Notes: generated from the letters alone by a model not told the origin. Positions 500 through 28,665 are shown, counted from the first letter of the stretch. The stretch is DNA of 35,651 bases from a virus (IMGVR_UViG_3300021408_000054:1-35651), one strand, 5' to 3'. Numbers and translations: made by a program.

Positions 500-2617
500 T
501 CAGAACCTGTTTCCCAAGTCTTTCGACTCGAATGCTACATAGTCTACGTCAAGCGAGCGGTTAGCGCCGCCGGTGGATTGAATTGCCAAACCGATGTTCA
601 AGCCTTCGGTATCCGGCACGTTCGTTGAGTGCGTAGCCGCCAGAACATCGTTAATGTAAAACTCGATGGTTCCGAGTGTGTCTTGCAGAATGCGCAGACG
701 ATACCAGGTGTTCAGAACCATCGCGATGCCTGTGTCGATATCTGTGTTGACGCCGGCTTCGCGCGTAAACGTGTGAAAGCTAGAGTCGGACGCAGAGTCG
801 AGATAGAATAGAATCGAGTCGGTCGTAGCTGCGAAGACGTTGTTTTCGAAACCTATCTGGATAAAAACGCCAGTCACACTTGGGGCCCGCACGATGGCCT
901 CGAACGAGTAGACGTCCTGACCTAAAATCCACTCGTCGGAGCGTGAGCGTCCCTTGAACATAATGACCGCGTCGCCAACCACGTTGTCCGTGGTCATACG
1001 AAGAATGCCAGGATGATTGTCTTCACCTGGAGGCACTGTTGCCGTGCCTAGGTCCGCCCCGCCACCAATGGTCATTCCAGTCCAGTGAGTCTGGCCCAGG
1101 TGTAGCTCAGTGCCCGCAGTTGCCCATGACTCGTCTCTAACGTGATCGAAGTCCTCCCAAAAAATCATGCGACGTTGCTGTTTGCGAAACGTTAGCCCGC
1201 TCGTATCCTGGTCCATATCCGAATCGGGACGCAAGTCGAGACTGATTGTGCCGTCAGAGTTGGATCTCAGCGCCAACCCGTCGCCAATGAACTTCCACAC
1301 GAGACCGATGGTGCTCGCGTCGCGCACTAGCGTCATACCTGGTGATCCGGCGGCAATATCTTGCCTAACAGCGGTAGCGCTGGTCGGGTTTCCCAGTACC
1401 GTGTAAGGAGGCGCCGTCCCGAGGTTCGTGAGCGTGATGCTAGAGCCAACGGCGTATCCGAACTTGATATTACCAATGATTGGGCTTTCAACAGCGTTCC
1501 AGTAAGCAGTAATCGTTGTCGAGCTTGTGACTTGTGCCGATACCGAAACCTGATCCTCAGCTTCATCAGCTAGCGTTCCCTTACCAGTGTAAGGTCCGTT
1601 TATTTGAGTTATCAGAACGTTGGTGCCTGGAGTTAGCCCTGACAAACCAGTGATCTGAAACGTTCCCGATAGAGTAGGGATAGAACCAAGGTTAACCTCG
1701 ACGACGGTAAGAGCCATGAGCGTCGTTCCGCCGCCGCCTCCCGATCCGTCTGCTCCAGGTGGACCAGCTGGACCAATGAAAAACGTCGCTTCAGCGTCTT
1801 GCCCGTCTTGCCCCGGAAAACCGATCGGTCCAGCAATACCGGCTATGCCAGGAGAGCCAGCGGCTCCAGCTGTACCTGGAAATCCCGGTAGTCCGTCAGC
1901 ACCGTCAGCACCGTCAGCACCAGAGAAACCGATCGGACCTGGAACGCCAGCGGCTCCAGGTGTTCCGGCTACGCCGTCAGCGCCATTGGCACCCTGCTGA
2001 CCCGGTAGGCCGTCTTGCCCGTCTTGCCCGTCATAGCCTGGGAAACCTACAGGGCCGCGCTCGCCAGCGGCTCCAGGACTCCCAGTAGCCCCCGCGACCC
2101 CTTGTTGGCCTGGTAGACCGTCCTGACCGTCAACGCCGTCCTGACCTGGGAAACCGATGGCACCCATAACCCCGTCTACACCAGGGGCTCCAACGGGTCC
2201 CTGGAGACCCGGCAAACCATCGGAGCCATCAGCGCCGTCAGCTCCAGGGAAGCCTTGGACGCCAGGCGAACCAGGTGAACCAGATATGCCGGGTAGACCA
2301 TCGGCGCCATCCTGACCGTCTCTACCGTCTTGCCCAGAGAAACCTACAGGGCCGCGCTCGCCAGCGGCTCCAGCCACTCCAGGAAATCCCGGTTGACCGT
2401 GTTCTCCAGGCTCCCCACGTTCACCTTGTACACCTTGCGTACCTTGTAATCCGGTACCCACTGGAATCGGAGCAACAGTGACAACAGTGTTGAAACCGTC
2501 GTCGTCGATCGTTACTCCGATAAACTTTAGAGTGTGACGTCTACGATATGCAGCGTCGTTTTCGTCAAGGATTTCTACATATCCCTGTATGTCTCTAATC
2601 CAGCTCAGGTTTGGCAA
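500..2617 (-). CDS. Collagen-like tail fibre protein with C-terminal ConA/LamG-like beta-sandwich
   Basis: Long Gly-X-Y run (~aa 55-290); C-terminal domain with WYRLRI...IEFYINDVL...DVDYV pattern; located after the baseplate genes. Confidence 0.8.
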   Translation of the reverse strand: MPNLSWIRDIQGYVEILDENDAAYRRRHTLKFIGVTIDDDGFNTVVTVAPIPVGTGLQGTQGVQGERGEPGEHGQPGFPGVAGAAGERGPVGFSGQDGRDGQDGADGLPGISGSPGSPGVQGFPGADGADGSDGLPGLQGPVGAPGVDGVMGAIGFPGQDGVDGQDGLPGQQGVAGATGSPGAAGERGPVGFPGYDGQDGQDGLPGQQGANGADGVAGTPGAAGVPGPIGFSGADGADGADGLPGFPGTAGAAGSPGIAGIAGPIGFPGQDGQDAEATFFIGPAGPPGADGSGGGGGTTLMALTVVEVNLGSIPTLSGTFQITGLSGLTPGTNVLITQINGPYTGKGTLADEAEDQVSVSAQVTSSTTITAYWNAVESPIIGNIKFGYAVGSSITLTNLGTAPPYTVLGNPTSATAVRQDIAAGSPGMTLVRDASTIGLVWKFIGDGLALRSNSDGTISLDLRPDSDMDQDTSGLTFRKQQRRMIFWEDFDHVRDESWATAGTELHLGQTHWTGMTIGGGADLGTATVPPGEDNHPGILRMTTDNVVGDAVIMFKGRSRSDEWILGQDVYSFEAIVRAPSVTGVFIQIGFENNVFAATTDSILFYLDSASDSSFHTFTREAGVNTDIDTGIAMVLNTWYRLRILQDTLGTIEFYINDVLAATHSTNVPDTEGLNIGLAIQSTGGANRSLDVDYVAFESKDLGNRF
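2042..2373. repeat. Exact 35-bp direct repeat in collagen region (2042-2076 and 2339-2373)
   Basis: GAAACCTACAGGGCCGCGCTCGCCAGCGGCTCCAG occurs twice, 297 bp apart (in frame). Confidence 0.9.
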
Positions 2618-9694: not shown

Positions 9695-10132
9695 TCAAAT
9701 CAACTCTTTCCCATTGACCTTCATGGTCATAAAACTAAACGGATATTCGATCTGCAAAGCTCCAGCGCCTTGCTCGTGATCAATGTTGAACGCCTTCAGA
9801 CGACACGAAATGCACTCAACAGAACGCACTAATCCAGACTCGTTAACGAGACTGTAGTCCAGCGTCCATAGCTTCAAGAGCGGCTTCTCTCCCAGGTCCG
9901 TCAAGAAGTCGTTACCCTGTTCAAAGTCAGAGAACGTGAACGAGCCTACACCACCCTGAAGCTGTCCAGGCGTACGGCGTAGCGGCTTATTCGAAGCTCC
10001 AAAGACGAACTCTTCTTCAAGTTCTTGAGCCAGAGAGACGTTGCCGATACACAGATACTGTTTATCGTTCGCCACGATCCGACCGTGCGAAAACGAAAAC
10101 GCGAAACCTTCATGATCTGGGAACGTCGCCAT
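9695..10132 (-). CDS. Tail tube protein (copy B)
   Basis: 145-aa beta-rich protein upstream of the chaperone; clear paralog of 10274-10771. Confidence 0.8.
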   Translation of the reverse strand: MATFPDHEGFAFSFSHGRIVANDKQYLCIGNVSLAQELEEEFVFGASNKPLRRTPGQLQGGVGSFTFSDFEQGNDFLTDLGEKPLLKLWTLDYSLVNESGLVRSVECISCRLKAFNIDHEQGAGALQIEYPFSFMTMKVNGKELI

Positions 10133-10277
10133 TTTCTTTTTCCTTCAGAGTAGAGATAACTTCACGCTTACATTTCTCGATTTCTCTAGCGAGCAATATT
10201 GCGTGCGTTGAATTTCCAACCAAGCTAGCTCCGTATTCAGCTAGCCCAGCGAACGCCTTTTCAATCTTGGACTTCAT
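10110..10277 (-). CDS. Small 55-aa helical protein between tube paralogs
   Basis: ATGA overlap with the tube A stop; MKSKIEKAFAGLAEYGASLVGNSTHAILLAREIEKCKREVISTLKEKENGDVPRS. Confidence 0.55.
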   Translation of the reverse strand: MKSKIEKAFAGLAEYGASLVGNSTHAILLAREIEKCKREVISTLKEKENGDVPRS

Positions 10278-10771
10278 AGCAGGTTCACCAGATTCTGTGC
10301 GATGCCTAGAACCGCTTGAGCGATGCCAGCGGGTGACAGGATAACATCTGCGCCGTCAATGCGCATAGACAGAAACGAGAAAGGGTACTCAGCGCCAAGC
10401 GCTTCAGCGCCAGCCTGATGATCGAACGATACACTAAGCAATCGACATGCCTTGCACTCGATAGAGCGTACGGTGCCGTCTTCCTTAACCAGCGTGTAAT
10501 CCAGAGTCCAGAGCTTCATGAAAGGATCTGGCTTGAGCGAACGAAAGAAATCGGAGCCTTGCTCGAAGTCAGAGAAACGCAAGTTTCCCATTCCCATTCC
10601 AAGCTGTCCCGCGCTACGCCGCAAAGGCGCTCGACTGGTACCGTACACAGGCGTGTCAGACAGATCCTGTGAGATCTTGACTCCGTCAATTCCAATGTAC
10701 TGACGATCGTCTACCTTGATCACAGCGTGCGAGAACGAAATCGCAAAACCGGAATGATCTGGAAAGCCCAT
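10274..10771 (-). CDS. Tail tube protein paralog (copy A) with C-terminal amphipathic extension
   Basis: Shares FPDHxGFAxSFSH, FSDFEQG, KLWTLDY, VRSxEC and EYPFSF with copy B; extra SPAGIAQAVLGIAQNLVNLL. Confidence 0.75.
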   Translation of the reverse strand: MGFPDHSGFAISFSHAVIKVDDRQYIGIDGVKISQDLSDTPVYGTSRAPLRRSAGQLGMGMGNLRFSDFEQGSDFFRSLKPDPFMKLWTLDYTLVKEDGTVRSIECKACRLLSVSFDHQAGAEALGAEYPFSFLSMRIDGADVILSPAGIAQAVLGIAQNLVNLL

Positions 10772-17545: not shown

Positions 17546-17722
17546 TTAGTTAACGGCCTGAAGGCCCATTCGCACGAGACCGTCCAACGGGATCTTGTGC
17601 TTCTTATTTAACTTGACAATCCTATTTATCTCCTTCAGCCAATTCGCGCGTGTGTACGGTCTATTGGTATCGAGCCGGCGCGCAGCCTGAAAAATCTCTT
17701 CAATCAGCTTATCTCGTGTCAT
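17546..17722 (-). CDS. 58-aa ORF coupled to the MuF-peptidase; immunity candidate
   Basis: ATGA overlap with the MuF stop; MTRDKLIEEIFQAARRLDTNRPYTRANWLKEINRIVKLNKKHKIPLDGLVRMGLQAVN; below the ORF-track cut-off. Confidence 0.6.
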   Translation of the reverse strand: MTRDKLIEEIFQAARRLDTNRPYTRANWLKEINRIVKLNKKHKIPLDGLVRMGLQAVN

Positions 17723-18888
17723 AGCAATCCCCTGAGTCTTAGCACGTCTTCCACTAACTTGTGAGCTTTAGGGGCATTCTTCAACAACCATTCAGGGTGC
17801 GCTTTCGAATGGTACGCAGCAAACGATTCAGCAAAGTACTCTTGGCGGTTCTCCCTTGCGTAATCCGAAATGTGCTCACGGTCGCTAGCATTGAAACGAC
17901 TGTTGATCAGGTTGTCTATGTCGTGATGAGCGGAGCCTACCTGATCGTTCAAGTGCAACATATGACCGAACTCATGCACAGAAACATTAGAGACATAATC
18001 AGAAACAGAAACCTCTGTTTGCGCTATCAAATATCCTTTTCCAGGCGCCACAGACCTTGCTACGTTAAGCGCTGCTCTGCCATGCACCTTGAGAGCTTCT
18101 CCACCAAAATTCCGAGCAACGCCAGCTGAGAAAGCGAGCCCACTGCCGCCCTCTATCGTGTCAGACATTGAAGCGAAGTTTTCGAATCCAACTCGTTTAT
18201 CAGTAATCGTTAGCGAATCCAGCGAGCGACCCGGCACACTCCAGAACTTCTGAAAACCAGCTCTGTTCAAACCATCGTAAATCGCTTCACGGTGTTGCTC
18301 GGAATGAGAACCGACAATTCTTACCCGTTTAACGTTGTCCCCTAACAATCCTGGAGTGTCATTAAATCCGGACACTATCTCAGTCGCGCTAGGAACTTTA
18401 GGTTTCTTGATCTGTGGCTCTAAAGGCTTAGCTACGTTGCGGATTTTGCGTTGTGCAGTCGCTACTAACTGAGCATCATACTTAGCAGCTCCAAGCATGT
18501 CCAAAGCGTTCACACGGGCTTGCGGCGAGAGACCCCAGCCGCCTGAAGGCCTCTCTCTAGGGAGCCCCACAGTGATGCCCCTACGCCCGGCAGTGCGCAT
18601 GGAGACCATGCGAACGAGAGAGCGGCAACCCCAGTGCAATGGAGGCCAGTGAAATTGCCAGAAGCCAGCGTCCCACGGTAACAGGATCGCGTTGTACTTC
18701 TTACAGACACGAGTCGTGCGAAGATCGATGATAGCGTCAAACAGATAGTAGCCTAGACGCTTCACAAGGTCAGGGTCGTGCATCATGTGCCAACGACCCT
18801 GATTCATGTGATCCATGATCAGCGTGCGTGTAACCACGTCCACACCTTGTGGTATGTGTTTCGCCGTACGCTTGATCGGTCTAGCCAT
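17719..18888 (-). CDS. MuF (gpF/SPP1 gp7-like) minor head protein with C-terminal zincin metallopeptidase domain
   Basis: A..D.RTT..C...PPLHWGCRS MuF motif; C-terminal HEFGH...ISDYARENRQEYFAESF. Confidence 0.9.
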   Translation of the reverse strand: MARPIKRTAKHIPQGVDVVTRTLIMDHMNQGRWHMMHDPDLVKRLGYYLFDAIIDLRTTRVCKKYNAILLPWDAGFWQFHWPPLHWGCRSLVRMVSMRTAGRRGITVGLPRERPSGGWGLSPQARVNALDMLGAAKYDAQLVATAQRKIRNVAKPLEPQIKKPKVPSATEIVSGFNDTPGLLGDNVKRVRIVGSHSEQHREAIYDGLNRAGFQKFWSVPGRSLDSLTITDKRVGFENFASMSDTIEGGSGLAFSAGVARNFGGEALKVHGRAALNVARSVAPGKGYLIAQTEVSVSDYVSNVSVHEFGHMLHLNDQVGSAHHDIDNLINSRFNASDREHISDYARENRQEYFAESFAAYHSKAHPEWLLKNAPKAHKLVEDVLRLRGLL

Positions 18889-19703: not shown

Positions 19704-19933
19704 AACCATACTTTCTCCAGATGCTCAAGGATCTTAGCTTTGCAATCTTCAAGCTCAGCTCCTCGGATCTGAAACTCTGTCATGATTCGTAATGGCTTAT
19801 CGTGCAAGCGAATGTATGTGTTTAACGACACTAGCCAAGACTCTTTCTCAGCAAGCTCAGTCAGCGCTTGCAAATCGGAAGACTTGATAGGCGTCTTCTT
19901 TAGGAACGCCGTTATCTGTTTAAACAGGTTCAC
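19700..19933 (-). CDS. Hypothetical protein
   Basis: 77 aa overlapping the portal end and the next gene. Confidence 0.55.
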   Translation of the reverse strand: MNLFKQITAFLKKTPIKSSDLQALTELAEKESWLVSLNTYIRLHDKPLRIMTEFQIRGAELEDCKAKILEHLEKVWL

Positions 19934-21428
19934 TCTGAGCGTCCTTCACAACGGCGTAACGCCCGTCAAGCTGAGCAAGAGTCATTGCTTGCTCCAGAAG
20001 GTCAGCTAACGCGCTAGGATCAGCCTGACCAAACGCTACCCGGATCCTGTTGTCTAGGTCAGGGTAAGACGTTGCAGCGCGAACCATGAGCATCAACGTC
20101 TTGACGTCGGCTCGCATCAAGCGCGCTGCCTCCAGTCCAGTCGTATCGGCAACCCGGTCCGCATACTCCACGCCCTCCAGGGCGCCATCCGCTTCGTCTC
20201 CAGAGGCCAGAGAGAGCTTCTTACCAACCGGCTTAGGTTCGATCGGCTCAGGCTTCACGAAGGTCAACTCTAGCCCATACTGACCAGCGACTTCTTCCAG
20301 GTTCTCTATCGTGTAACCAGCGGTTCCGAACGTAGCAAACCCGGTAGCAAGACTAGATATAGCCGTTGCCTTCTGATTCTTGTCTTCCGGTGGATCGGTC
20401 GTCCAACACGGATACGGAACTTCTTTGCCTTCACCAAAGTTCAAACGAACGAACGGCGCAAAGATCTGAACTTGAATGTCTTCCGATAAACGTTGCGCTA
20501 TCGCTTTCGCTTTGATTCTATCGATCGACTTCTCATGCGTCTCAGCAGCAGCGCGATTCGCTCCAGTGCTAGCCACTTCAGAACCTAGGTTAGCGCCTTC
20601 AAGTAGAATCTTGATCTTTCTATCAGCGCGCTCGATAGCTGCCTGAAACGTTTGCCAGCTCTGATCCGTTGGCTCCAGAAGCTCCAGATCATAGGAACTC
20701 CACTCATCAGTATCGCGCGGCAAACCAACAACGCCTTCAGATCCCATGTCCTGAACGTCATCAACGAAATCTTTCTTTTCGTTGCTCTCACTATTCAGTG
20801 GAACATAAGCCTTTACAATCGGTAGGCCGTGACGTTCGTTGTAACGATTCCAGTCGCGAAACGTTGCCTGTTTGAAATACCAGAGTCGAGCTAGCGCGCG
20901 GATCACACCGCGATAAAAACCGTAATCTCCGTCAGTGTGAAGAAACCAGAGACCGTCTCCAGGCGTAACGTCAAACATGCATTCACGAGCCATGTAACGC
21001 CAAGTATTACGCTCAGCGTCATAGAACGAAAACTCCGGATCCAGAAATTTCAGAACCGGATACCAAACGCCTTCAGTCGTTACCCACTGAAGCACGCCGA
21101 TCGAAACTCCCATCGCTACTTTCGTTTCGATTATCGAGTAGAGCTGAGCGTCTGGAATGATTTTCTTGTGAAGCTCTTCTGTCTGGAGCTTAATCGCTTC
21201 GTCTTCACATTCGATAGTGAACGGCGCCTTCAGGATCGCGTTTACAAGCTTTTGCATGGAAGAAGGAATTTCGTCGTCTTCTCCCATCGATCGCCACATC
21301 TGAGCCGTTCGCGACATGTCGCCCGTCATATGCTGACGGAGCGCGCTGAGAATAGATGCCAAGCTCCAGCTGGTTTGGATCGATGGCTGCCAATGGCTAA
21401 TGGTCTGCTTAGGTCTAGTGTTGGCCAT
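19920..21428 (-). CDS. Portal protein (Mu gp29 / DUF935)
   Basis: G..R.LA..W.FK.....W..Y.ER.G.P...A, A..H and C-terminal L...L..AM..A.L.GR motifs. Confidence 0.92.
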   Translation of the reverse strand: MANTRPKQTISHWQPSIQTSWSLASILSALRQHMTGDMSRTAQMWRSMGEDDEIPSSMQKLVNAILKAPFTIECEDEAIKLQTEELHKKIIPDAQLYSIIETKVAMGVSIGVLQWVTTEGVWYPVLKFLDPEFSFYDAERNTWRYMARECMFDVTPGDGLWFLHTDGDYGFYRGVIRALARLWYFKQATFRDWNRYNERHGLPIVKAYVPLNSESNEKKDFVDDVQDMGSEGVVGLPRDTDEWSSYDLELLEPTDQSWQTFQAAIERADRKIKILLEGANLGSEVASTGANRAAAETHEKSIDRIKAKAIAQRLSEDIQVQIFAPFVRLNFGEGKEVPYPCWTTDPPEDKNQKATAISSLATGFATFGTAGYTIENLEEVAGQYGLELTFVKPEPIEPKPVGKKLSLASGDEADGALEGVEYADRVADTTGLEAARLMRADVKTLMLMVRAATSYPDLDNRIRVAFGQADPSALADLLEQAMTLAQLDGRYAVVKDAQSEPV

Positions 21429-21621
21429 TATCAGGCGGGCCTTTCACGGCGCACGAAAGGCAGCAATAGCCCTTGCGCATTTCAGGAAGTAAATGGAAAC
21501 GGGTGTTAGGAAGAAAATCCGTCCTACAGGACGGACACTTCCAGAATTCTGCTGATACAAGCGCGCGCCTGGGGTCAGGCGGCTGCCAGCCTTCTGTAAA
21601 CGCTACGGAACGCTCTCTCAC
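21415..21621 (-). CDS. Small Zn-ribbon protein
   Basis: CPSC...CLSC; overlaps the portal start. Confidence 0.55.
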   Translation of the reverse strand: MRERSVAFTEGWQPPDPRRALVSAEFWKCPSCRTDFLPNTRFHLLPEMRKGYCCLSCAVKGPPDNGQH

Positions 21622-21634
21622 GAGCGGAAGCGTA

Positions 21635-21955
21635 TCATAGAAGGCGCTTGATTTCTAATTCGTTTTGATCCAGCCAGGCCTGCCCAGCTTCAGGGTCCGA
21701 GAGCTGGCCGTCAAATTCGAGCTTGCCGCTCAGGTTGACTCGGACATGAATCCCGATCACTCCGTAATAGGCCAGGCTCTGAGCTACAGACAGCTCCAGG
21801 GGCTTCGCTCCAGGGAGCGTGGCAAACGGAGAGCGCTTTAGAGGAACGCTCTCTCTGGCCAGCCTACGCTTAGCAGCGGCGCTTGCCGGTTTCTTCTTTG
21901 ACTTCGGAAGAGCCGCCGAACGTTCCTCTGTCCACAGGCTGTCTTGTTTCTTCAA
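21635..21955 (-). CDS. Hypothetical protein, C-terminus resembles a TubC-N docking domain
   Basis: GIHVRVNLSGKLEFDG...WLDQNELEIKRLL. Confidence 0.55.
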   Translation of the reverse strand: MKKQDSLWTEERSAALPKSKKKPASAAAKRRLARESVPLKRSPFATLPGAKPLELSVAQSLAYYGVIGIHVRVNLSGKLEFDGQLSDPEAGQAWLDQNELEIKRLL

Positions 21956-22191
21956 TTAACGTTCCTGTCCCACGAAGGCAACTTCTCAAGCGAGCCGTAA
22001 CGCCAATCGAGGAATATATCTACGGCTTGATTTCGGAAGCCTCTGAAGCCACGCAAGTCCTGTTGCGTGGCCCTGACGTTCTTCAAGGCAAGATCGTACA
22101 TGTGCGCGTAGCGGTTCACCTGATCGCAATATCTCAGGTTGATTACGGTTTGAGCCACGAACCTGGCTCCAGTCTGAGTTACGTCTTTCAT
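21952..22191 (-). CDS. Hypothetical protein
   Basis: 79 aa; 4-nt overlaps with both neighbours. Confidence 0.6.
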   Translation of the reverse strand: MKDVTQTGARFVAQTVINLRYCDQVNRYAHMYDLALKNVRATQQDLRGFRGFRNQAVDIFLDWRYGSLEKLPSWDRNVN

Positions 22192-22379
22192 TTGAACGTT
22201 ACCGTGGCTTTGGTTCCGTCTGAAAACACGTGAAGCATGTTTTCTTCATCAACCCATATCTCCACGTAAGCGCCTGTGGCAACGGTTAAAGTAACCGTTA
22301 TCTCAAGCTCTACCGAGCCAATGATCTTTTTCGTGGCTTCGTTAACTATGGCTTCGATTTTTTCAAACATGTCACTCAC
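22188..22379 (-). CDS. Hypothetical protein
   Basis: GTGA overlap with GGAGG SD upstream; 63 aa. Confidence 0.6.
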   Translation of the reverse strand: MSDMFEKIEAIVNEATKKIIGSVELEITVTLTVATGAYVEIWVDEENMLHVFSDGTKATVTFK

Positions 22380-22618
22380 CTGATCCTCCTTATCGGTCTG
22401 TCCAGTTCTTCCCATATCGATTCACCGTGACTCGGATTGAACTTGCAGGCTCCCAGTCCAAAGCCTCTGGAGCCGATCCTGTGAGGCATGCTCGAATCTT
22501 TCTTTCCTACCATGCCGCCACAATCGCATATCTGGCCCTGGGCTAGTCTGCAGTATCGGCAACGTGGACGGCCCTTGCGACAGAGCTTGGACACGCAACG
22601 TATTTTAGGTTCTGACAC
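22376..22618 (-). CDS. Cys-rich hypothetical protein
   Basis: C...C..CxxC..CxC..H...C pattern. Confidence 0.6.
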   Translation of the reverse strand: MSEPKIRCVSKLCRKGRPRCRYCRLAQGQICDCGGMVGKKDSSMPHRIGSRGFGLGACKFNPSHGESIWEELDRPIRRIR

Positions 22619-22639
22619 GTGTCCAAGCTTAACAGATAA

Positions 22640-22942
22640 TCAATACGAAGAAAGCGTCTTTCCGTCCCTGGAGATGAAACGGTGAACAGCGCGGTTCCCG
22701 TTTTTACGGATGATCCGAACCTTCGCATTGGGGTGAGCTTTGGCATAGGAAGATGCGATCGAAATCAGATCCTTTGCTCGTTCAGCAGAGTTGTGAAATG
22801 TCACGAAACCTTGTCCACCTTCAACCTGGATAACGAACGGTTCGTCTTTCTTGATCTCTGTAAACTGAACTCCCTTGACCTGTAGACGGCGCTTGACAGT
22901 GGCGTTGGTGCGGGCGGCATTGAGTTGGTTGTTCGTTTGCAT
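22640..22942 (-). CDS. Hypothetical protein (100 aa)
   Basis: Start moved to ATG 22942 (MQTNNQ), preceded by AAAGGA SD. Confidence 0.7.
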   Translation of the reverse strand: MQTNNQLNAARTNATVKRRLQVKGVQFTEIKKDEPFVIQVEGGQGFVTFHNSAERAKDLISIASSYAKAHPNAKVRIIRKNGNRAVHRFISRDGKTLSSY

Positions 22943-22970
22943 TGTCGTATTTCCTTTTAGAGTTGTTTGC

Positions 22971-23045
22971 TTCGTTGGCTCTAGGCGGTATCGGATGCGC
23001 ACCACACGTTGCATTCGATACCCGCTAGAGCCCCCGATGGGGCTC
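22971..23045 (-). ncRNA. Structured intergenic element, copy A
   Basis: GAGCCCC-atcg-GGGGCTC hairpin overlapping a long imperfect hairpin (GGCTCTAG..GGTATCG..ATGC / GCAT..CGATACC..CTAGAGCC), followed by AACGAA. Confidence 0.65.
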
Positions 23046-23052
23046 GTTTATC

Positions 23053-23136
23053 TCAGGTCGTCTCTGCCAGCATTTCTTGAACCTTGGCAAGGTGCTTTGC
23101 CTTATCATTCGTCTTCAGTCCGTTTCCGCGACTCAC
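23053..23136 (-). CDS. 27-aa leader-like ORF
   Basis: GTG start just downstream of the promoter; MSRGNGLKTNDKAKHLAKVQEMLAETT; stops 7 nt before element A. Confidence 0.4.
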   Translation of the reverse strand: MSRGNGLKTNDKAKHLAKVQEMLAETT

Positions 23137-23149
23137 AACCTACACCCTG

Positions 23150-23196
23150 TATATACGGTCGCTCTGTCGAAAGGTAAACATAAATCGACAGAGCGA
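23150..23196 (-). promoter_or_regulatory. Promoter/operator repeat copy 1
   Basis: AAACATAAATCGACAGAG at 23176-23193; TTTACC-N17-TATATA on the minus strand; TCGCTCTGTCGA/TCGACAGAGCGA inverted repeat flanks the -35. Confidence 0.75.
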
Positions 23197-23209
23197 ACCG
23201 TATTTCTTT

Positions 23210-24028
23210 TCAGGCCTTCAGAATCTTGCCTGACGGGCGCTTACCGAAAGCGAATCCCGCGTCATCCTTGCTTTGCTCCAGGGTGGCCGTCAACTGGACA
23301 CGAAGACCTTTCAAGTTACCGTAGTCTTCCGAGATTCCCTGAACCTTAGGAGCGTCCCGCAAGATAGCGACAGGGCAGGATACCCAGCAGCGCCAGCCGT
23401 CGTCAGACTGAACAATGATCTTGGTTTGCGGACCGTATGCGCCAATCGTGTGTTTCACCTTCACAATCTCACCTGAGAACACAACGCGCCCGACTGGAGC
23501 TGGAGGCAACTTGGTTCCGAGTGACTTGATAAAGTCAACCGTTGCGACGCTCAGATGTCCGAACGCAATCAGCTTACCCAGCAGCTCCTTTGCCATAGCG
23601 CGCTTGGCGCCCTTGAGAGCGACTTTGAAGGCGGGAATGAGCCCGTGTGCCTGAGCGAATGCGTTGGCTTGCTTGCGGGCCGCCTGACGGCGAATACGAG
23701 CCATCTCCAGGCTACGCGCGGCGAACGTCTTGGCTTTGGCTTCGTTGCGAGCTACGCGCAATGCCTTGGCGCGCGCTGAACGAACTTGCTTGATCTTGGC
23801 AATCAAACCCAGGTCACCAGTCTTCTTTACGCACTCACAGCCGACCTTGAACGAACGGCCGTCTGAAGACTGAATGTGGTACATATCGACAATGCCCGTT
23901 CCGCAGTAGTCGCAAGACCCGCCGCACTGGAGCGGAGCGCCCGGGCAAGCCTGAAAATACTTGCGCTCGTTGCCAACGAACGTGAACGGAGCCGAACCCA
24001 AACCAGCCGTTTCAAAAATGTGTGTCAT
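23210..24028 (-). CDS. Hypothetical protein: N-terminal Zn finger, C-terminal OB-fold-like domain
   Basis: CDYCG...VGCEC; GRVVFSGEIVKVK..YG..KIIV; GGAGG SD. Confidence 0.75.
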   Translation of the reverse strand: MTHIFETAGLGSAPFTFVGNERKYFQACPGAPLQCGGSCDYCGTGIVDMYHIQSSDGRSFKVGCECVKKTGDLGLIAKIKQVRSARAKALRVARNEAKAKTFAARSLEMARIRRQAARKQANAFAQAHGLIPAFKVALKGAKRAMAKELLGKLIAFGHLSVATVDFIKSLGTKLPPAPVGRVVFSGEIVKVKHTIGAYGPQTKIIVQSDDGWRCWVSCPVAILRDAPKVQGISEDYGNLKGLRVQLTATLEQSKDDAGFAFGKRPSGKILKA

Positions 24029-24051
24029 GTGAATCCAAAGCCTCCACTGAT

Positions 24052-24114
24052 ACAGTACGGCGCCGTTCAGAAAGAATAAACATAAATCGACAGAGTCTGT
24101 GTCTTTTTATGTTT
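24052..24114 (-). promoter_or_regulatory. Promoter/operator repeat copy 2
   Basis: 37-bp imperfect palindrome AAACATAAAtcGACAgagtctgTGTCttTTTATGTTT (24078-24114); TTTATT-N17-TACTGT. Confidence 0.75.
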
Positions 24115-24394
24115 CGGGCCTAGTTATCGGAAGATCCAGAAAGAACGCGAGTGGCTCCGCTTCCGCCGAATGATTGTCGAATCCGTACATAAAGAAACGT
24201 AAACACTTAGGAGTGTTAACGATAGGCATGTAAGTTCCGTCTTTCAGACAATAGCTTATGTCTTTCGAGCACAGGCTGATGCCACTGATCTCGGGGAAAG
24301 CTTTCTGAATCGCAATCACCCCAGGGCAAGCATGGCAATGACCTGGGAGCCCGTTCTTTATATCGTCTTTCGTTATCTCGACTAGGCGGTTCAT
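24107..24394 (-). CDS. Hypothetical protein
   Basis: 95 aa; IT..DI..G......CP..IAI...F...FD pattern; ATGA overlap. Confidence 0.65.
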   Translation of the reverse strand: MNRLVEITKDDIKNGLPGHCHACPGVIAIQKAFPEISGISLCSKDISYCLKDGTYMPIVNTPKCLRFFMYGFDNHSAEAEPLAFFLDLPITRPET

Positions 24395-24597
24395 TTGTAA
24401 TCGATCTCCAGCTCGACACGACCTTTTGATTCAGCTTTATTAATCGCATTCTTGATTCTAAATACCTCATCTTGCACATGAACCACGTCTCTCATGTCGG
24501 TTAACAAGCTAACCTGTAGTCTCTCGTGATAAACTATCATTTCAGCAAGATGTCTCTTGTGCCAGCTGAGCGGTTTAGTCTCTTTCTTATTAGCCAT
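24391..24597 (-). CDS. Hypothetical helical protein
   Basis: Start set to ATG 24597 (MANKK). Confidence 0.55.
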   Translation of the reverse strand: MANKKETKPLSWHKRHLAEMIVYHERLQVSLLTDMRDVVHVQDEVFRIKNAINKAESKGRVELEIDYK

Positions 24598-24610
24598 TGT
24601 CGTTTTTCTT

Positions 24611-24814
24611 TCAGCTCTCGATTCCGTCTTTAACCAAACCAAGTTGTTCACACGCTTCCCAGGCCAGGATACGCGCCTCTTTAGCTCCTTTGAGCGACTG
24701 GACTACCACGATCGGCTGAACGCCTCCCTTGAGTGTCACAGAACAATAAACGCGCGGCATGTTCGGCTGGAGCTTGTAAAAGTTGACAACTGAGCCTCTG
24801 GGAAATCTCATCAT
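24611..24814 (-). CDS. Hypothetical protein (67 aa)
   Basis: Start set to ATG 24814 with AAGGA SD, directly after element B. Confidence 0.6.
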   Translation of the reverse strand: MMRFPRGSVVNFYKLQPNMPRVYCSVTLKGGVQPIVVVQSLKGAKEARILAWEACEQLGLVKDGIES

Positions 24815-24836
24815 AACTGATCCTTGAGTGTGTAGT

Positions 24837-24927
24837 TTCGTTGGCCCTAGTCCGGGCGCCGGGGACAATGACGGCCGCGTATCCGTCGTGCCTTGCCGGT
24901 CGCCCAGGCTGGGGCCCCCGAGGGGGC
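24837..24927 (-). ncRNA. Structured intergenic element, copy B
   Basis: GCCCC-ctcg-GGGGC hairpin overlapping a long imperfect hairpin (GGCCC..GGGCG.CCGG..GACGG / CCGTC..CCGG.CGCCC..GGGCC), followed by AACGAA. Confidence 0.65.
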
Positions 24928-24933
24928 GGGTGG

Positions 24934-25101
24934 TTACTTGCGACACTCATCGCACGGGCAAGGCACCGGCCCCAATTGCGCGGCGGTGAATTGTAGCGCC
25001 TTGCGCTCCGCCGAACGCCGGTCGCGACATGCGCAGCATGCGGGATGGTCGCACCGGCAAGCGCTGGTCTCGATTGGGCGGGTCGTGTTGCTGGCGTTCA
25101 T
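24934..25101 (-). CDS. 55-aa Cys-rich protein
   Basis: AAGGA SD; CRCDHPACCAC...CPCDEC; first ORF after promoter copy 3. Confidence 0.6.
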   Translation of the reverse strand: MNASNTTRPIETSACRCDHPACCACRDRRSAERKALQFTAAQLGPVPCPCDECRK

Positions 25102-25145: not shown

Positions 25146-25209
25146 AGTATGGATCAACGCGAAACGAAGTGCAAACATAAATCGACAGAGCGTGTGTCTT
25201 TTTATGTTT
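25146..25209 (-). promoter_or_regulatory. Promoter/operator repeat copy 3
   Basis: 37-bp imperfect palindrome AAACATAAAtcGACAgagcgtgTGTCttTTTATGTTT (25173-25209); TTGCAC-N17-CATACT. Confidence 0.75.
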
Positions 25210-26656
25210 ATCGGCGGAAAGCACTGCGAATCTGCTGGGCTCTCGACTCTTGAACCGCTCGCTTGATTCCCGAATTCAGGTCTTTCGCTTCTTCCGCAAT
25301 ACCCGAAACTCCCAGAAGCTTCCAGAGTGCCGCTAGCGCGTCCACACGGTCGTCACACAGGTCTTTCACGCCTGTGAAGCCACAGACTTCGTCAACGAAG
25401 TCGCTCACCCATTCGGCGCTGTCAGGCTCGGGAACGAGTATGTTTCCAAGGTTCCAACCGTCTTGAGCTGCTGGCGTAGCTCGAACGTACTTATCTGCTG
25501 AAGCAATTCGGTAAGTGAATCCCTTGACGCTACGTTTTATATGTTGCGCCGTTCCTTTTTCCGTGCCTGAGCATAACCACAATGTGCGACTTTGTTTCGT
25601 GGCTCGCGCCATGATGTCTGTGAACTCTGGACTCTGGCACTGGCGGCGAATCTCGTTCGTTAGGTAGACCTTCTTTCCGTAGCGTCTACCCTGGAGCAAC
25701 ACAGACCAGTCCGATCGCGTCTTCTCTGAGTAAGCAAGGTCAGCTCCGTTGCCACGTGTGAATCCAACGCCTCCAGTTGGAAGCTCAGTGTAGAACGTTG
25801 GCTCTCCGAACAGAGCTTCTCCACGTGGACGTGGACGCCCCTGATACATGCTCGCCCATGTATAAGGGTTGTTCTTGAACTGCTGAAGCCACGTACTTGG
25901 ACGTCCGGCTTCCCAGAGAGCTTCACCAATAGCGCGACCGTTGACGTCGTCTTCCGAATCGCACTCTGCTGGTATGCGCAGATACACCCATTTGAAGAGC
26001 TTGATCAGTCTCCCGATCATGTCGTCAACGTGCCAGCGTGTAGCCATAGCAACGCAGCTGGAGCCCGGGTGACGTCGGGTCTGCGCAACGTCTGTGAGCC
26101 ACTCCCAGCCACGTTCGCGAATCACCTTGGACTCAGCGTCTTGCCTGTCTTTCGTTGGATCGTCGATTAACGTCAGGCCGCTAATCGGATTACCCGTCAA
26201 GCCACCACCTAAACCAACGAAACGGATCTGTGTGCCCCCATCACAGTTCAGCTCGCCTTCAGCCTCACGTAGCTTAGGATTCAACCCAGCAAGCGCGCAT
26301 AGGTCTCTTACCTTGCGCGCTACCTGAATCGCTCTGGTGAAGTTATACGTAGCGTAAGCATGAGACAGGCCTGGAGCGCGCTGAGACAGCGACACGAAGG
26401 CGTGCTTAGCAATCTCCGTCTTACCGTGCTGTGGCGGCCCGCTGAAGGTTAGGTTGACTTCTTGTGGTCGTCCCTTCTCATCGATCGTATTGTCGAGAGC
26501 TTCAACGTAGCTATCAAACCAAACGGGCGGCTGAAGCTTAGGACTGCACTGTTGCATGCAGTCATAGATCTTGAGCTTAGGTCGGTCCCTTTCTTTCGCT
26601 TTGGCTTCCTTCAGTTTCTCCCGACGTTTCAGAGCCTCTGCCACCAACGGATTCAT
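25208..26656 (-). CDS. terL: Terminase large subunit
   Basis: Walker A PPQHGKT, Walker B LIDDP, coupling motif ATRWH, nuclease DLA...DDRVDA. Confidence 0.95.
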   Translation of the reverse strand: MNPLVAEALKRREKLKEAKAKERDRPKLKIYDCMQQCSPKLQPPVWFDSYVEALDNTIDEKGRPQEVNLTFSGPPQHGKTEIAKHAFVSLSQRAPGLSHAYATYNFTRAIQVARKVRDLCALAGLNPKLREAEGELNCDGGTQIRFVGLGGGLTGNPISGLTLIDDPTKDRQDAESKVIRERGWEWLTDVAQTRRHPGSSCVAMATRWHVDDMIGRLIKLFKWVYLRIPAECDSEDDVNGRAIGEALWEAGRPSTWLQQFKNNPYTWASMYQGRPRPRGEALFGEPTFYTELPTGGVGFTRGNGADLAYSEKTRSDWSVLLQGRRYGKKVYLTNEIRRQCQSPEFTDIMARATKQSRTLWLCSGTEKGTAQHIKRSVKGFTYRIASADKYVRATPAAQDGWNLGNILVPEPDSAEWVSDFVDEVCGFTGVKDLCDDRVDALAALWKLLGVSGIAEEAKDLNSGIKRAVQESRAQQIRSAFRR

Positions 26657-26984: not shown

Positions 26985-27701
26985 CTACGGAACGTAGGCT
27001 TGAATAGCATTCTTCTGTGACGCAGTGAAGTCAAGCAATCCGTTCTTTAGTACATCATTGCTGTTGACGGCCATCGTACCAGCGGACGAGTGCCCCCAGC
27101 CTCCACAGTGCCCAAGCTCATGAAGTGTAGAGTTTCGAACGATACGATTGCGCTCTACTTGAGACAGGCCATTCCAAACGAACGCGCCTCCGTACGAAGT
27201 CTCAATCACCTTGAAAAAGATCGACACGGCGCAACCTTGAAACTTGCATACTCGGCCCGATCCAGCGACCTGAGTACAAGCCGACGCAATTGTCGATTTA
27301 GCCTTTGGTGAACCAGCTGGCATCGCATCGAATATCACCTGCACAACAGTTTCCGAACCAGCTCCACTAACCAAAGCGTCCCAACCGCGCGAACCATAGA
27401 CAGCGGTGAATTTCGTAATTCCGTCTCCAATGGCTTGAGACCAATTCACGCCGTTGCTATCTGGTGGAGCGAACGAGCGAATTCGCATCACCTTGTCAGC
27501 GGGTAAGAAGCATCCGTTGTTCGACGGGAACGGAGCCGCGCCACATGGAAACGAGTCCGTGCCAGCAGCAAACTCTTGAATCCCGTATCCCGATGGCACC
27601 GTTAGAGCTTGCTCTAACGTACCTATTTTAAGCCCGTCAACTTCTTCGTATTCAGCGCCGCACCCAATAAGGAGAAACGCGAATGCTAGTAGATGCTTCA
27701 T
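26985..27701 (-). CDS. Lipoprotein zinc metalloprotease (metzincin/matrixin-like)
   Basis: Lipobox LIGC; HELGHCGGWGH (HExxHxxGxxH) followed by a Met-turn (GTM). Confidence 0.8.
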   Translation of the reverse strand: MKHLLAFAFLLIGCGAEYEEVDGLKIGTLEQALTVPSGYGIQEFAAGTDSFPCGAAPFPSNNGCFLPADKVMRIRSFAPPDSNGVNWSQAIGDGITKFTAVYGSRGWDALVSGAGSETVVQVIFDAMPAGSPKAKSTIASACTQVAGSGRVCKFQGCAVSIFFKVIETSYGGAFVWNGLSQVERNRIVRNSTLHELGHCGGWGHSSAGTMAVNSNDVLKNGLLDFTASQKNAIQAYVP

Positions 27702-28570
27702 AGACAGTTCCCCGCAGCAATCGAAAAGCTAGTTGGGTTTTGGACCTTGTTGTAGCTGTTTGCTTGGCAGAGCCGCCCAGGCTCGAACTCAAAGAAATCA
27801 GTTGACGTCCCGCTGAAGGAGTCGGCCCGTTGAGAGCAGGTAGCATTCCACCACCTATCACTGCATGGTGTTAATGGATTCCATGGAATGAATCCTTGCC
27901 CTGTCGTCATCACAGCCGCCGCTTCTATGCCGTGCTCAAAAAGCTGCTCGCGTCCGCCGTCGAAGGTGTTAGCCGCGATCCTTGTTGCGTCCACAGTGAT
28001 TAGCATGATGTGCTTGTTTCGATAGTACAGTCCCGGTAGTGACTCAGTGAGTAGCACGTCATTGACAACCGGGTTGGCGGCTCTATGGGTCAGACACACG
28101 AAGTGACTGATTAGATGATCGCCGTAGTTCCCGCAGCTGCCGACACGGATAATCACATTAGGGTTCCCAAATTGTACGGTAGATACCTCTTGAAACGTCC
28201 AGCTAGAGTCAAGATAGCCGGGCGAGCTTAGGATGTTGTAAGCGCGCACCATCTCAGTTTTTGGGGTTCTGCTCGGATAGACGCCGGCAATTTGGAAGTC
28301 CGCCGCTCCCGGCTCGAAATAGTACCGGATATTTTTCGTGTCGGGCAGAAAGCAGCTCTCCGGAGCCGGCATGTCCGTAGTGCACGACACTTCCCCTGTA
28401 CCCTGGTATCCGAACGTGCGCTTAGAGCCATCGATAAAAGTGGTAGGCTTCACGCTCACAGCTTGTTCAACGGTTCCAAGCTCGAATTCTTCTAACTCAC
28501 CAGCGTCCCCACAACCACAACCCACAAGGGCTAACAGAAAACCTAAAACGAAAGCTTTGATACTGTTCAC
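27698..28570 (-). CDS. Lipoprotein paralog with degenerate metalloprotease site
   Basis: GTG start with GGAG SD; lipobox LVGC; shares GTxEQAxxV..GY..C..CFLP..K..R with its neighbour but has no HExxH. Confidence 0.7.
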   Translation of the reverse strand: MNSIKAFVLGFLLALVGCGCGDAGELEEFELGTVEQAVSVKPTTFIDGSKRTFGYQGTGEVSCTTDMPAPESCFLPDTKNIRYYFEPGAADFQIAGVYPSRTPKTEMVRAYNILSSPGYLDSSWTFQEVSTVQFGNPNVIIRVGSCGNYGDHLISHFVCLTHRAANPVVNDVLLTESLPGLYYRNKHIMLITVDATRIAANTFDGGREQLFEHGIEAAAVMTTGQGFIPWNPLTPCSDRWWNATCSQRADSFSGTSTDFFEFEPGRLCQANSYNKVQNPTSFSIAAGNCL

Positions 28571-28665
28571 GGTGCACTCCAGAGTAATGGGTAGAACGCG
28601 ACAATCACGCCTACCAGAACCATAACCGCTATGCATGCGGCCAATGCGTAACTTTGCTTCTTCAT
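28567..28665 (-). CDS. 32-aa single-TM peptide
   Basis: MKKQSYALAACIAVMVLVGVIVAFYPLLWSAP; GTGA overlap with the lipoprotein start. Confidence 0.55.
   Translation of the reverse strand: MKKQSYALAACIAVMVLVGVIVAFYPLLWSAP

What the first reader, a model, noticed from the sequence alone, without database searches (positions are those of the whole stretch)
22971..24927. Twice-repeated two-hairpin element in identical promoter-short ORF-element-RBS-gene units
Seen: two intergenic segments (22971-23045 and 24837-24927) share one plan on the minus strand. A small GCCCC-(a/c)TCG-GGGGC hairpin overlaps the 5' arm of a long imperfect hairpin, which closes with CTAG(A/G)GCC-AACGAA. An A/C-rich spacer, an AAGGA SD and an ATG follow. 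The long stems differ in sequence but keep base-pairing. Each starts 6-7 nt after the stop of a short ORF (27 aa; 55 aa) that is the first ORF behind one of the repeated promoters. Inference: a conserved cis RNA that I do not recognise. The overlapping hairpins are partly exclusive, so it could be a translation-coupled switch, an RNase III processing signal (as in T7 early RNA), a put-like antiterminator, or a DNA hairpin for cassette exchange.
Basis: partly seen in the sequence, partly recalled or inferred. Interest (0 to 1): 0.85.

Follow-up and report, generated by a model that had tools for sequence, protein, structure and literature searches.

The report
Self-capping RNase III-like phage hairpin
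Two copies of a folded element between the small genes of an uncultured soil phage belong to a family found between genes of several otherwise dissimilar phage genomes; it likely marks where a host enzyme cuts the message, and a built-in small hairpin would then seal the cut end, a new twist on a signal long known from phage T7.

Summary
Both copies exist, fold strongly and match no Rfam family. I found 21 copies in 19 viral or metagenome records, with compensatory changes at 11 of 19 pairs in a 15-sequence alignment. No real copy turned up among 14 GTDB hits or in 401 Myxococcota genomes. The core is a long stem with a fixed mismatch and a fixed U·G wobble. The 5' UUCG hairpin is the common phage terminator hairpin without its U-run, and it is displaced once the long stem forms. 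The promoter plus short-ORF context is not general: copies also follow ssb, precede a tRNA or a terminator, or face a convergent gene. Best reading (about 0.5): a T7-like RNase III site. The U-A and U·G pairs have the T7 R1.1 box spacing, which predicts a cut at GGCC^AACGAA and an upstream end of CCCC-UUCG-GGGG. Against it: a C-G pair at proximal-box position 4 in 20 of 21 copies, and both window copies fit the boxes poorly. No RNA data were available. Verdict: new variant of a known kind.

The parts
24837..24927 (-). element copy A (whole)
24914..24927 (-). copy A 5' hairpin GCCCC-CUCG-GGGGC (5 bp), no U-run after it
24843..24916 (-). copy A long stem; mismatch at stem position 6, U·G at position 11; predicted cuts 24915|24914 and 24843|24842 (inferred)
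24837..24842 (-). copy A tail AACGAA; CGA can pair with the UCG of the small loop across a GG/AA internal loop
24821..24825 (-). Shine-Dalgarno-like AAGGA behind copy A
24611..24814 (-). 67-aa ORF downstream of copy A, no PHROGs family
24934..25101 (-). 55-aa Cys-rich ORF upstream of copy A, no Pfam or PHROGs family
22971..23045 (-). element copy B (whole)
23028..23045 (-). copy B 5' hairpin GAGCCCC-AUCG-GGGGCUC (7 bp); its central GGCUC pairs either with 5' GAGCC or with 3' GAGCC
22977..23032 (-). copy B long stem; predicted cuts near 23031|23030 and 22977|22976, possibly shifted by one base (inferred)
22971..22976 (-). copy B tail AACGAA
22952..22956 (-). Shine-Dalgarno-like AAGGA behind copy B
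22640..22942 (-). 100-aa ORF downstream of copy B, no Pfam or PHROGs family
23053..23136 (-). 27-aa candidate ORF (GTG start) ending 7 nt before copy B; unverified, an alternative 27-aa frame 23025-23108 overlaps it
25173..25209 (-). promoter-like self-complementary repeat 1 (context; not part of the family elsewhere)
24078..24114 (-). promoter-like repeat 2 (its 272-aa first ORF has no element behind it)
23176..23212 (-). promoter-like repeat 3

Best explanation
The element is a conserved, covarying hairpin family between phage genes that likely works in the mRNA as a host RNase III (or similar double-strand RNase) cutting site, with a built-in UUCG hairpin that would protect the upstream piece after the cut. 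Shown: the long stem and its fixed positions; the small hairpin lacks a U-run; the element sits just behind stop codons. Predicted by folding: the small hairpin forms first and is displaced when the 3' arm and the AACGAA tail arrive. Inferred: polymerase reads through; RNase III docks with its proximal box on stem positions 3-6 and its distal box on the U·G at position 11, and cuts at GGCC^AACGAA, at the edge of the GG/AA loop. The downstream RNA would then start with an unstructured A/C-rich leader and its SD. The upstream RNA would keep the long hairpin (single cut), or end in CCCC-UUCG-GGGG, which refolds at the very end (double cut).
For: (1) Covariation: 94.9% of cells paired and 11 of 19 pairs changed on both sides, against at most 4 pairs in slid controls (members were picked for strong stems, which inflates this). 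(2) In an otherwise G-C stem, position 11 is non-G-C in 20 of 21 copies (U·G 16, always with U on the 5' arm), and in 14 of the 15 copies found without that position in the pattern. Position 5 is U-A in 13 of 21; position 5 or 6 is U-A in 17 of 21. (3) PMC1540722 defines E. coli sites by A-U/U-A at proximal position 2 and a polarity-sensitive U·G in the distal box. In the T7 hairpin before gene 1.1 these two lie 6 bp apart and the inferred cut is 10 nt past the wobble G. The family has the same 6-bp spacing, both pairs in 11 of 21 copies, and 10 nt past the wobble G is exactly the GGCC/AACGAA junction. (4) The paired 5' cut leaves four G behind NUCG, matching the four C that pair in 15 of 15 aligned copies, while the two outer hairpin pairs hold in only 12 and 6 of 15 (part of this was in the search pattern). 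(5) The extended form dominates in full-length RNA (basal pair probability 0.56-1.00 in 21 of 21); the 5' fragment alone folds a hairpin of -9.2 to -16.6 kcal/mol in 19 of 21. (6) The same CCCC-UUCG-GGGG hairpin is followed by a run of four or more U in 21 of 40 viral hits but in 0 of 21 family members. (7) The stop-to-hairpin distance is 5-10 nt in 16 of 19. (8) Contexts suit a transcript-punctuation signal: SD plus start codon downstream in 15 of 21, a tRNA in one, a terminator-like hairpin in one, a convergent gene in two. (9) RNase III is present in 5 of 5 Myxococcota genomes tested; the host assignment itself is only inferred.
Against: No cut was observed. [quoted passage not shown] Both window copies have C-G at position 5, the binding antideterminant; copy B fits only if the register moves by one base, and copy A fits neither. 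T7's own hairpins show U·G at that distal position in only 2 of the 8 rows examined. The register was chosen after seeing the data, and two other registers are also arguable. The 16S flanking stems of 4 operons from 3 Myxococcota genomes do not share the motif. Strand bias is weak: G·U 27 against A·C 18, the sense strand is more stable in 15 of 21, but both window copies are more stable on the opposite strand. The strong primary-sequence conservation across dissimilar phages is more than RNase III is known to need (PMC3867540 section 7 calls cellular proximal boxes degenerate).
Confidence: 0.5

Rival explanations
1. An uncut 3'-end barrier or pause: a terminator hairpin that lost its U-run plus a long G-C stem that blocks 3'-to-5' exonucleases or slows polymerase, giving upstream genes more stable mRNA (REP-like segmental stability, recalled).
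For: It lies right behind stop codons. The 5' module equals the common phage terminator hairpin. It occurs at transcript ends between convergent genes and is dispensable there (2 of 4 related junctions). The G-C antideterminants would protect it from RNase III.
Against: It does not explain the fixed mismatch at position 6 (never G-C, 0 of 21), the polar U·G at position 11, or the NUCG/CGA extension kept in L275, which has lost the small hairpin.
Confidence: 0.2
2. A two-state RNA read by a protein or by RNA polymerase (put- or nut-like antitermination, or a translation-coupled switch): the small hairpin plus the inner stem form first, and the tail then flips the structure.
For: In copy B the central strand and both alternative partners changed together (GGCUC with 5' GAGCC and 3' GAGCC). 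The hairpin starts at about the edge of a terminating ribosome (5-10 nt; footprint recalled). The sequence is conserved across dissimilar phages.
Against: Two copies face a convergent gene with nothing downstream to antiterminate or translate; L159 lacks both hairpin and tail, and L275 lacks the hairpin. The SD is outside the folded part in both window copies. Upstream open frames are 28-190 codons long, not leader peptides.
Confidence: 0.15
3. A DNA-level hairpin or shared homology patch that promotes gene exchange or moves as a small element.
For: Present at the ssb/HTH junction in L157 and L159 but absent in L158 and L161. It lies among ORFans in an accessory block. Strand bias is weak.
Against: One copy in 8 of the 9 homolog-bearing records searched whole, two in G411, none in G008 and G010. 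The interior varies freely while staying paired, unlike a MITE. There are no attC-type end motifs at the element ends in the 4 copies checked and no bulged bases in the basal 16 bp. No real hit in GTDB or 401 Myxococcota genomes.
Confidence: 0.08
4. A self-cleaving ribozyme of an undescribed class that processes the message without a protein.
For: Intergenic position between a stop codon and an SD, or before a tRNA, is typical of phage ribozymes (recalled); conserved non-canonical pairs.
Against: No Rfam ribozyme match. It is a single irregular helix with no junction. The HDV-like reading fails because the strand that would form P1 lies downstream, not upstream (sequence, topology recalled). 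The core alone occurs without flanks (L159).
Confidence: 0.05

Closest known systems
RNase III processing signals of phage T7 (hairpins before genes 0.3, 0.5, 1, 1.1, 1.3, 4.7, 6.5, 18.5; the R names and their status as cut sites are recalled, record V01146 as served does not annotate them)
   Same: An irregular hairpin between a stop codon and the next SD; an internal loop next to the inferred cut; U-A and U·G pairs 6 bp apart as in the hairpin before gene 1.1; the short duplex CAAGGYC/GGYCU also occurs in both.
   Different: Much richer in G-C; a C-G pair at proximal position 4; usually one copy per genome rather than a series; a latent UUCG hairpin is built into the lower stem; the shared duplex points the other way; the family model finds nothing in T7 (best E 0.69).
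Lambda tI/sib retroregulation (mechanism recalled; only a reference-list entry seen in PMC5371410)
   Same: A short terminator-type hairpin is absorbed into a longer RNase III-type stem in read-through RNA.
   Different: Here the short hairpin has no U-run (0 of 21), so it should not terminate; no integrase was seen nearby; the predicted outcome is protection rather than decay of the upstream RNA.
cUUCGg intercistronic and terminator hairpins of phages (T4 CUUCGG hairpins recalled; the common GGCCCC-UUCG-GGGGCC-U-run terminator seen)
   Same: The same 5' hairpin just after a stop codon.
   Different: The U-run is replaced by the 5' arm of a long stem that displaces the hairpin.
PeSL promoter/stem-loop cassettes of T4-like phages (PMC2839356 passages; PMC4122927 first third)
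   Same: Describes the window's three promoter-like hairpin repeats among ORFans rather well.
   Different: The element itself holds no promoter boxes and is mostly single copy.
HK022 put antiterminator (recalled; the one search gave no paper on it)
   Same: Two adjacent stem-loops can be drawn for the nascent RNA, located after the first ORF behind a promoter-like repeat in the window.
   Different: The hairpins overlap; the element also occurs at transcript ends; one hairpin can be missing.

Membership tests
RNase III processing site (T7 type) | Double helix of at least 11 bp on one side of the cut | tested here: met
   Counting Watson-Crick and G·U pairs, 13-16 of the first 16 stem positions pair in all 21 copies; requirement from PMC1540722
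RNase III processing site (T7 type) | A-U or U-A at proximal-box position 2 | tested here: inconclusive
   U-A at stem position 5 in 13 of 21; C-G in both window copies
RNase III processing site (T7 type) | No G-C or C-G at proximal-box position 4 | tested here: not met
   C-G in 20 of 21 in the favoured register; rule from E. coli and Aquifex enzymes, unknown for the host enzyme
RNase III processing site (T7 type) | U·G (U on the 5' strand) in the distal box, 6 bp beyond proximal position 2 | tested here: met
   U·G at position 11 in 16 of 21, including copy A but not copy B; the distal box is not conserved across species (PMC3867540)
RNase III processing site (T7 type) | Located in an intercistronic stretch of a read-through transcript | tested here: inconclusive
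   Intergenic, behind a stop codon, in most copies; transcription itself not observed
RNase III processing site (T7 type) | Cleavage by RNase III with rnc-dependent RNA ends | not testable with these tools
   needs RNA or an in vitro assay
Intrinsic (Rho-independent) terminator | G-C hairpin followed by a U-run | tested here: not met
   0 of 21 have four or more U after the hairpin
Any Rfam 15 family | Covariance-model score at the gathering threshold | tested here: not met
   Window: 2 weak hits elsewhere; 13 homolog loci: only a tRNA passes
Integron attC site | RYYYAAC at the 5' end, GTTRRRY at the 3' end, extrahelical bases (definition recalled) | tested here: not met
   No such end motifs at the element ends in 4 copies checked; one RYYYAAC match lies in the tail of L082, on the wrong side; symmetric mismatches without bulges
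PeSL cassette | Sigma-70 promoter joined to a stem-loop, repeated many times | tested here: not met
   No promoter called in the element; one or two copies per record
put antiterminator | Factor-independent suppression of downstream terminators | not testable with these tools
   Context argues against it in 3 of 21 copies
Host rRNA processing stem mimic | Same motif in the 16S flanking stems of the presumed host group | tested here: not met
   Absent from the 16S flanks of 4 operons in 3 genomes; 23S stems not examined

The most novel reading that the evidence does not exclude
A self-capping, two-state processing switch shared by phages of myxobacteria. A terminator hairpin was rebuilt into the lower half of a cleavage stem, so that folding kinetics or the ribosome stopping 6-7 nt upstream decides between 'hairpin, no substrate' and 'long stem, cut', and the cut itself releases a ready-made UUCG end cap. 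The fixed G-C-rich sequence, which breaks the E. coli RNase III rules, would be read by an RNase III of different specificity or by an unknown nuclease.
Probability: 0.2. Interest if true: 0.75.

Novelty: new variant of a known kind. Interest (0 to 1): 0.45.

Why it matters
If true, it gives a natural, portable RNA part that both splits a message and protects the new end. It also gives 21 natural substrates for learning how RNase III of a G-C-rich host reads sequence, since the family breaks an E. coli rule. It marks a group of uncultured soil phages, probably of myxobacteria, about whose gene control little is known. The basic kind of signal has been known from T7 since the 1970s, which limits the surprise.

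Tried and rejected
Rfam: no match for the window or 13 homolog loci. Cultured phage collection, blastn with one homolog: 26 weak partial hits, none covering 80%. GTDB pattern scan: 14 hits, none with the basal stem; core pattern in 0 of 401 Myxococcota genomes; model R1 in 0 of 5 large genomes, with only 150 candidates scored each. The R1 hit in G006 is L041, a chance pattern match with a weak stem. L012 was dropped as borderline; L087 and L088 are the window's own record, and L070, L147, L157, L259, L262 and others are repeat finds of the same records and were counted once. Relatives of the window by terminase: only 2 distant loci (29-30%), neither with a model hit, so conservation in close kin could not be tested. 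The last two viral scans gave 5 real hits among 42, all already known. Expression: no RNA holder listed. DNA contigs of the probable source sample cover both copies without listed variants or joints; this is not independent and contigs cannot show absence. Literature searches: the exact tail 10-mer gave only unrelated papers; sib/retroregulation, myxobacteria plus RNase III plus phage (103), UUCG plus RNase III plus phage early genes (0 papers, 104) and put (105) showed no description of this element. Supplements of PMC10690425: 0 hits in files 3-6, but the two zips and three large files could not be searched and I did not check that the tables hold sequences. The supplement of PMC5737381 was unreadable. 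An earlier computational listing of this motif there cannot be excluded. Considered from recall and rejected on anatomy: HDV-like, hammerhead, twister, pistol and hatchet ribozymes, fluoride and ZTP riboswitch look-alike words (present in copy A only), c4 antisense RNA, MITE, REP/REPIN, attC.

Full report
Setting. The window is a whole 35,651-base virus record with its genes on the minus strand: Mu-like portal, protease and capsid, tape measure, baseplate, terminase, primase. Between the terminase (25208-26656) and the portal (19920-21428) lies a block of small genes, nearly all without a family, punctuated by three self-complementary repeats with an identical 18-nt core. The two elements are in this block.

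Observation. Both copies are present at the stated coordinates, with exact matches to the shared 5' and 3' motifs and fold z-scores of -4.9 and -3.0. The lowest-energy fold is not two hairpins but one long irregular helix, in which the UCG of the small loop pairs with the CGA of the tail across a GG/AA internal loop. The small hairpin forms when the 5' part is folded alone. There is no Rfam match. The repeats are promoter-like by position and spacing only; the consensus scan called none.

Family. Pattern scans gave real members, judged by a paired basal stem, as follows: 2 of 9 (checked in 16); 4 of 29; 0 of 14 in GTDB (22, 25); in metagenomes 9 new of 38, plus the window's own two and one repeat find; 2 of 54; 2 of 80 ssb loci; 6 of 42 with the inner stem only; and 5 of 42, none new. 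In all, 21 copies in 19 records. That the metagenome contigs are phages is inferred from their genes. The window shares only four proteins, at 26-46% identity, with the other records compared, and no DNA, so the family crosses lineages. In 15 aligned copies 11 of 19 pairs change on both sides; members were chosen for strong stems, so this is an upper view. A model from six loci picked by the inner stem alone recovers both window copies (E 2e-9, 8.6e-4) and nothing in T7.

What is fixed and what is optional. The core is the basal stem of about 16 bp: position 6 is never G-C (17 of 21 mismatched), position 11 is U·G in 16 and G-C in only 1, and position 5 is U-A in 13. The top of the stem varies freely in length and sequence. 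Among the six members found without flanks in the pattern, UUCG precedes the stem in 5, a Watson-Crick hairpin in 4 and AACGAA follows in 3; the two with no tail at all face a convergent gene. The small hairpin is the ordinary phage terminator hairpin: 21 of 40 viral hits carry a U-run after it, against 0 of 21 family members. It starts 5-10 nt after the nearest stop of a frame open for 25 codons or more in 16 of 19 cases (gene calls unverified).

Context. Upstream open frames are 28-190 codons long; four are ssb (L069, L092, L116, L159) and one resembles an anti-restriction protein. Downstream there is an SD with a start codon in 15 of 21, a tRNA-Arg 13 nt after the stem in L092, a terminator-like hairpin with a U-run in L097, and a convergent HTH-like gene in L116 and L159. 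Two related phages have the same ssb/HTH junction without the element (L158, L161). The 'promoter, short ORF, element, gene' unit is therefore a local arrangement. The host is not established: the L116 SSB is 71% identical to one of a large Myxococcota genome, against 46-54% for the best hits in four others, and a window protein resembles metallopeptidase clusters, some of them rich in Myxococcota.

Mechanism. PMC1540722 (abstract, first parts of Results, legends and Discussion read) defines E. coli RNase III sites by an 11-bp helix with a proximal box (A-U or U-A at positions 2 and 4) and a distal box with a polarity-sensitive U·G; one set suffices. On the fetched T7 genome the intergenic hairpins share CAAGGYC/GGYCU, with A-U at the position-2 equivalent in 7 of 8 rows and a G on the 3' strand 6 bp further in 7 of 8 (U·G in 2; one row was off by one through my indexing). 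Ten bases past that G gives CCUUUAU^GAU in three rows, which agrees with the T7 ends as I recall them. The family has U-A and U·G at the same 6-bp spacing (both in 11 of 21), and ten bases past the wobble G falls exactly between GGCC and AACGAA. The matching cut on the other arm leaves CCCC-NUCG-GGGG at the end of the upstream RNA. This one register accounts for the wobble, the U-A pair, the internal loop, the tail and the four-C hairpin. PMC3867540 (section 7 and passages) notes that loops at the site give single cuts that leave stabilising 3' hairpins.

Against it. The register was found after the fact, prompted in part by an earlier AI note on another phage. Proximal position 4 is C-G in 20 of 21, which inhibits the E. 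coli and Aquifex enzymes (PMC3074117 passages). The window's own copies have C-G at position 5. Host-group 16S stems lack the motif. Strand bias is weak and reversed in the window copies. Nothing was measured on RNA. I therefore say that it likely works like a T7 RNase III site, at about even odds, and do not file it as a member.

Comparison and novelty. The closest known systems are the T7 processing hairpins, lambda tI/sib and phage UUCG hairpins (the last two recalled; PMC5371410 passages and reference list only). The window's promoter-like repeats resemble PeSL cassettes (PMC2839356 passages, PMC4122927 first third). Ten paper searches showed no description of this element, but the alignments in the supplements of PMC10690425 and PMC5737381 could not be read. 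Earlier notes of this scan report many T7-like hairpin families in other phages, so the kind is common. What is new is a sequence-conserved family that is mostly single copy, crosses lineages and embeds a U-less terminator hairpin in the lower stem. Verdict: real, new variant of a known kind, interest 0.45.

Noticed in passing
window 25173-25209, 24078-24114, 23176-23212 (minus): Three promoter-like repeats with an identical 18-nt core; each overlaps the upstream stop codon, and the first two fold into an AU-rich hairpin with a 2x2 internal loop (z -3.0, -2.6). PeSL-like in plan; they could be operators, terminators or further RNase III sites.
   Followed up: partly
window 23140-23215 (minus): The third repeat is part of a longer inverted repeat that encloses the -35-like box (fold z -6.0), unlike the other two.
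   Followed up: partly
window 21415-25101: A block of about a dozen small genes, almost all without a family, sits between terminase and portal; a weak terminator-like hairpin lies at 21517-21536 just before the portal.
   Followed up: no
window 26985-27701 and 27698-28636: Two tandem genes with signal-peptide-like starts; the second resembles M10/M57 metallopeptidases by Atlas features and has a 30% homolog in G001, another carrier of the element.
   Followed up: partly
window 17719-18888: Mu F-like head protein fused to a C-terminal zincin-like domain (Pfam ATLF hit, E 1.9e-9), like polymorphic MuF fusions (recalled).
   Followed up: no
window 9695-10132 and 10274-10771: Two similar genes in tandem, probably a duplicated tail tube (repeats D6 and D16).
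   Followed up: no
window 500-2617: Long collagen-like Gly-X-Y protein, probably a tail fibre.
   Followed up: no
window 24934-25101: The 55-aa ORF has two Cys clusters and no family.
   Followed up: no
L001 2001-2085 (-), L005 2001-2085 (+), L006 876-961 (+): A different conserved intergenic RNA candidate in three phage contigs of about 49% GC: stop codon, UUCG hairpin, a three-way fold closed by GGCCG/CGGCC, then a terminator. Not this family.
   Followed up: no
L173-L177, L181, L183, just after the ssb stop: A conserved hairpin with a variable A-rich loop follows ssb in a group of related contigs of about 44% GC.
   Followed up: no
L092 740-814: tRNA-Arg with anticodon GCG directly behind the element and in front of an SD.
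   Followed up: no
L157, L158, L159, L161, after the ssb stop: ssb and a small HTH-like gene converge; the gap is 84, -4, 69 and 1 nt, and the element fills it where it is long.
   Followed up: yes
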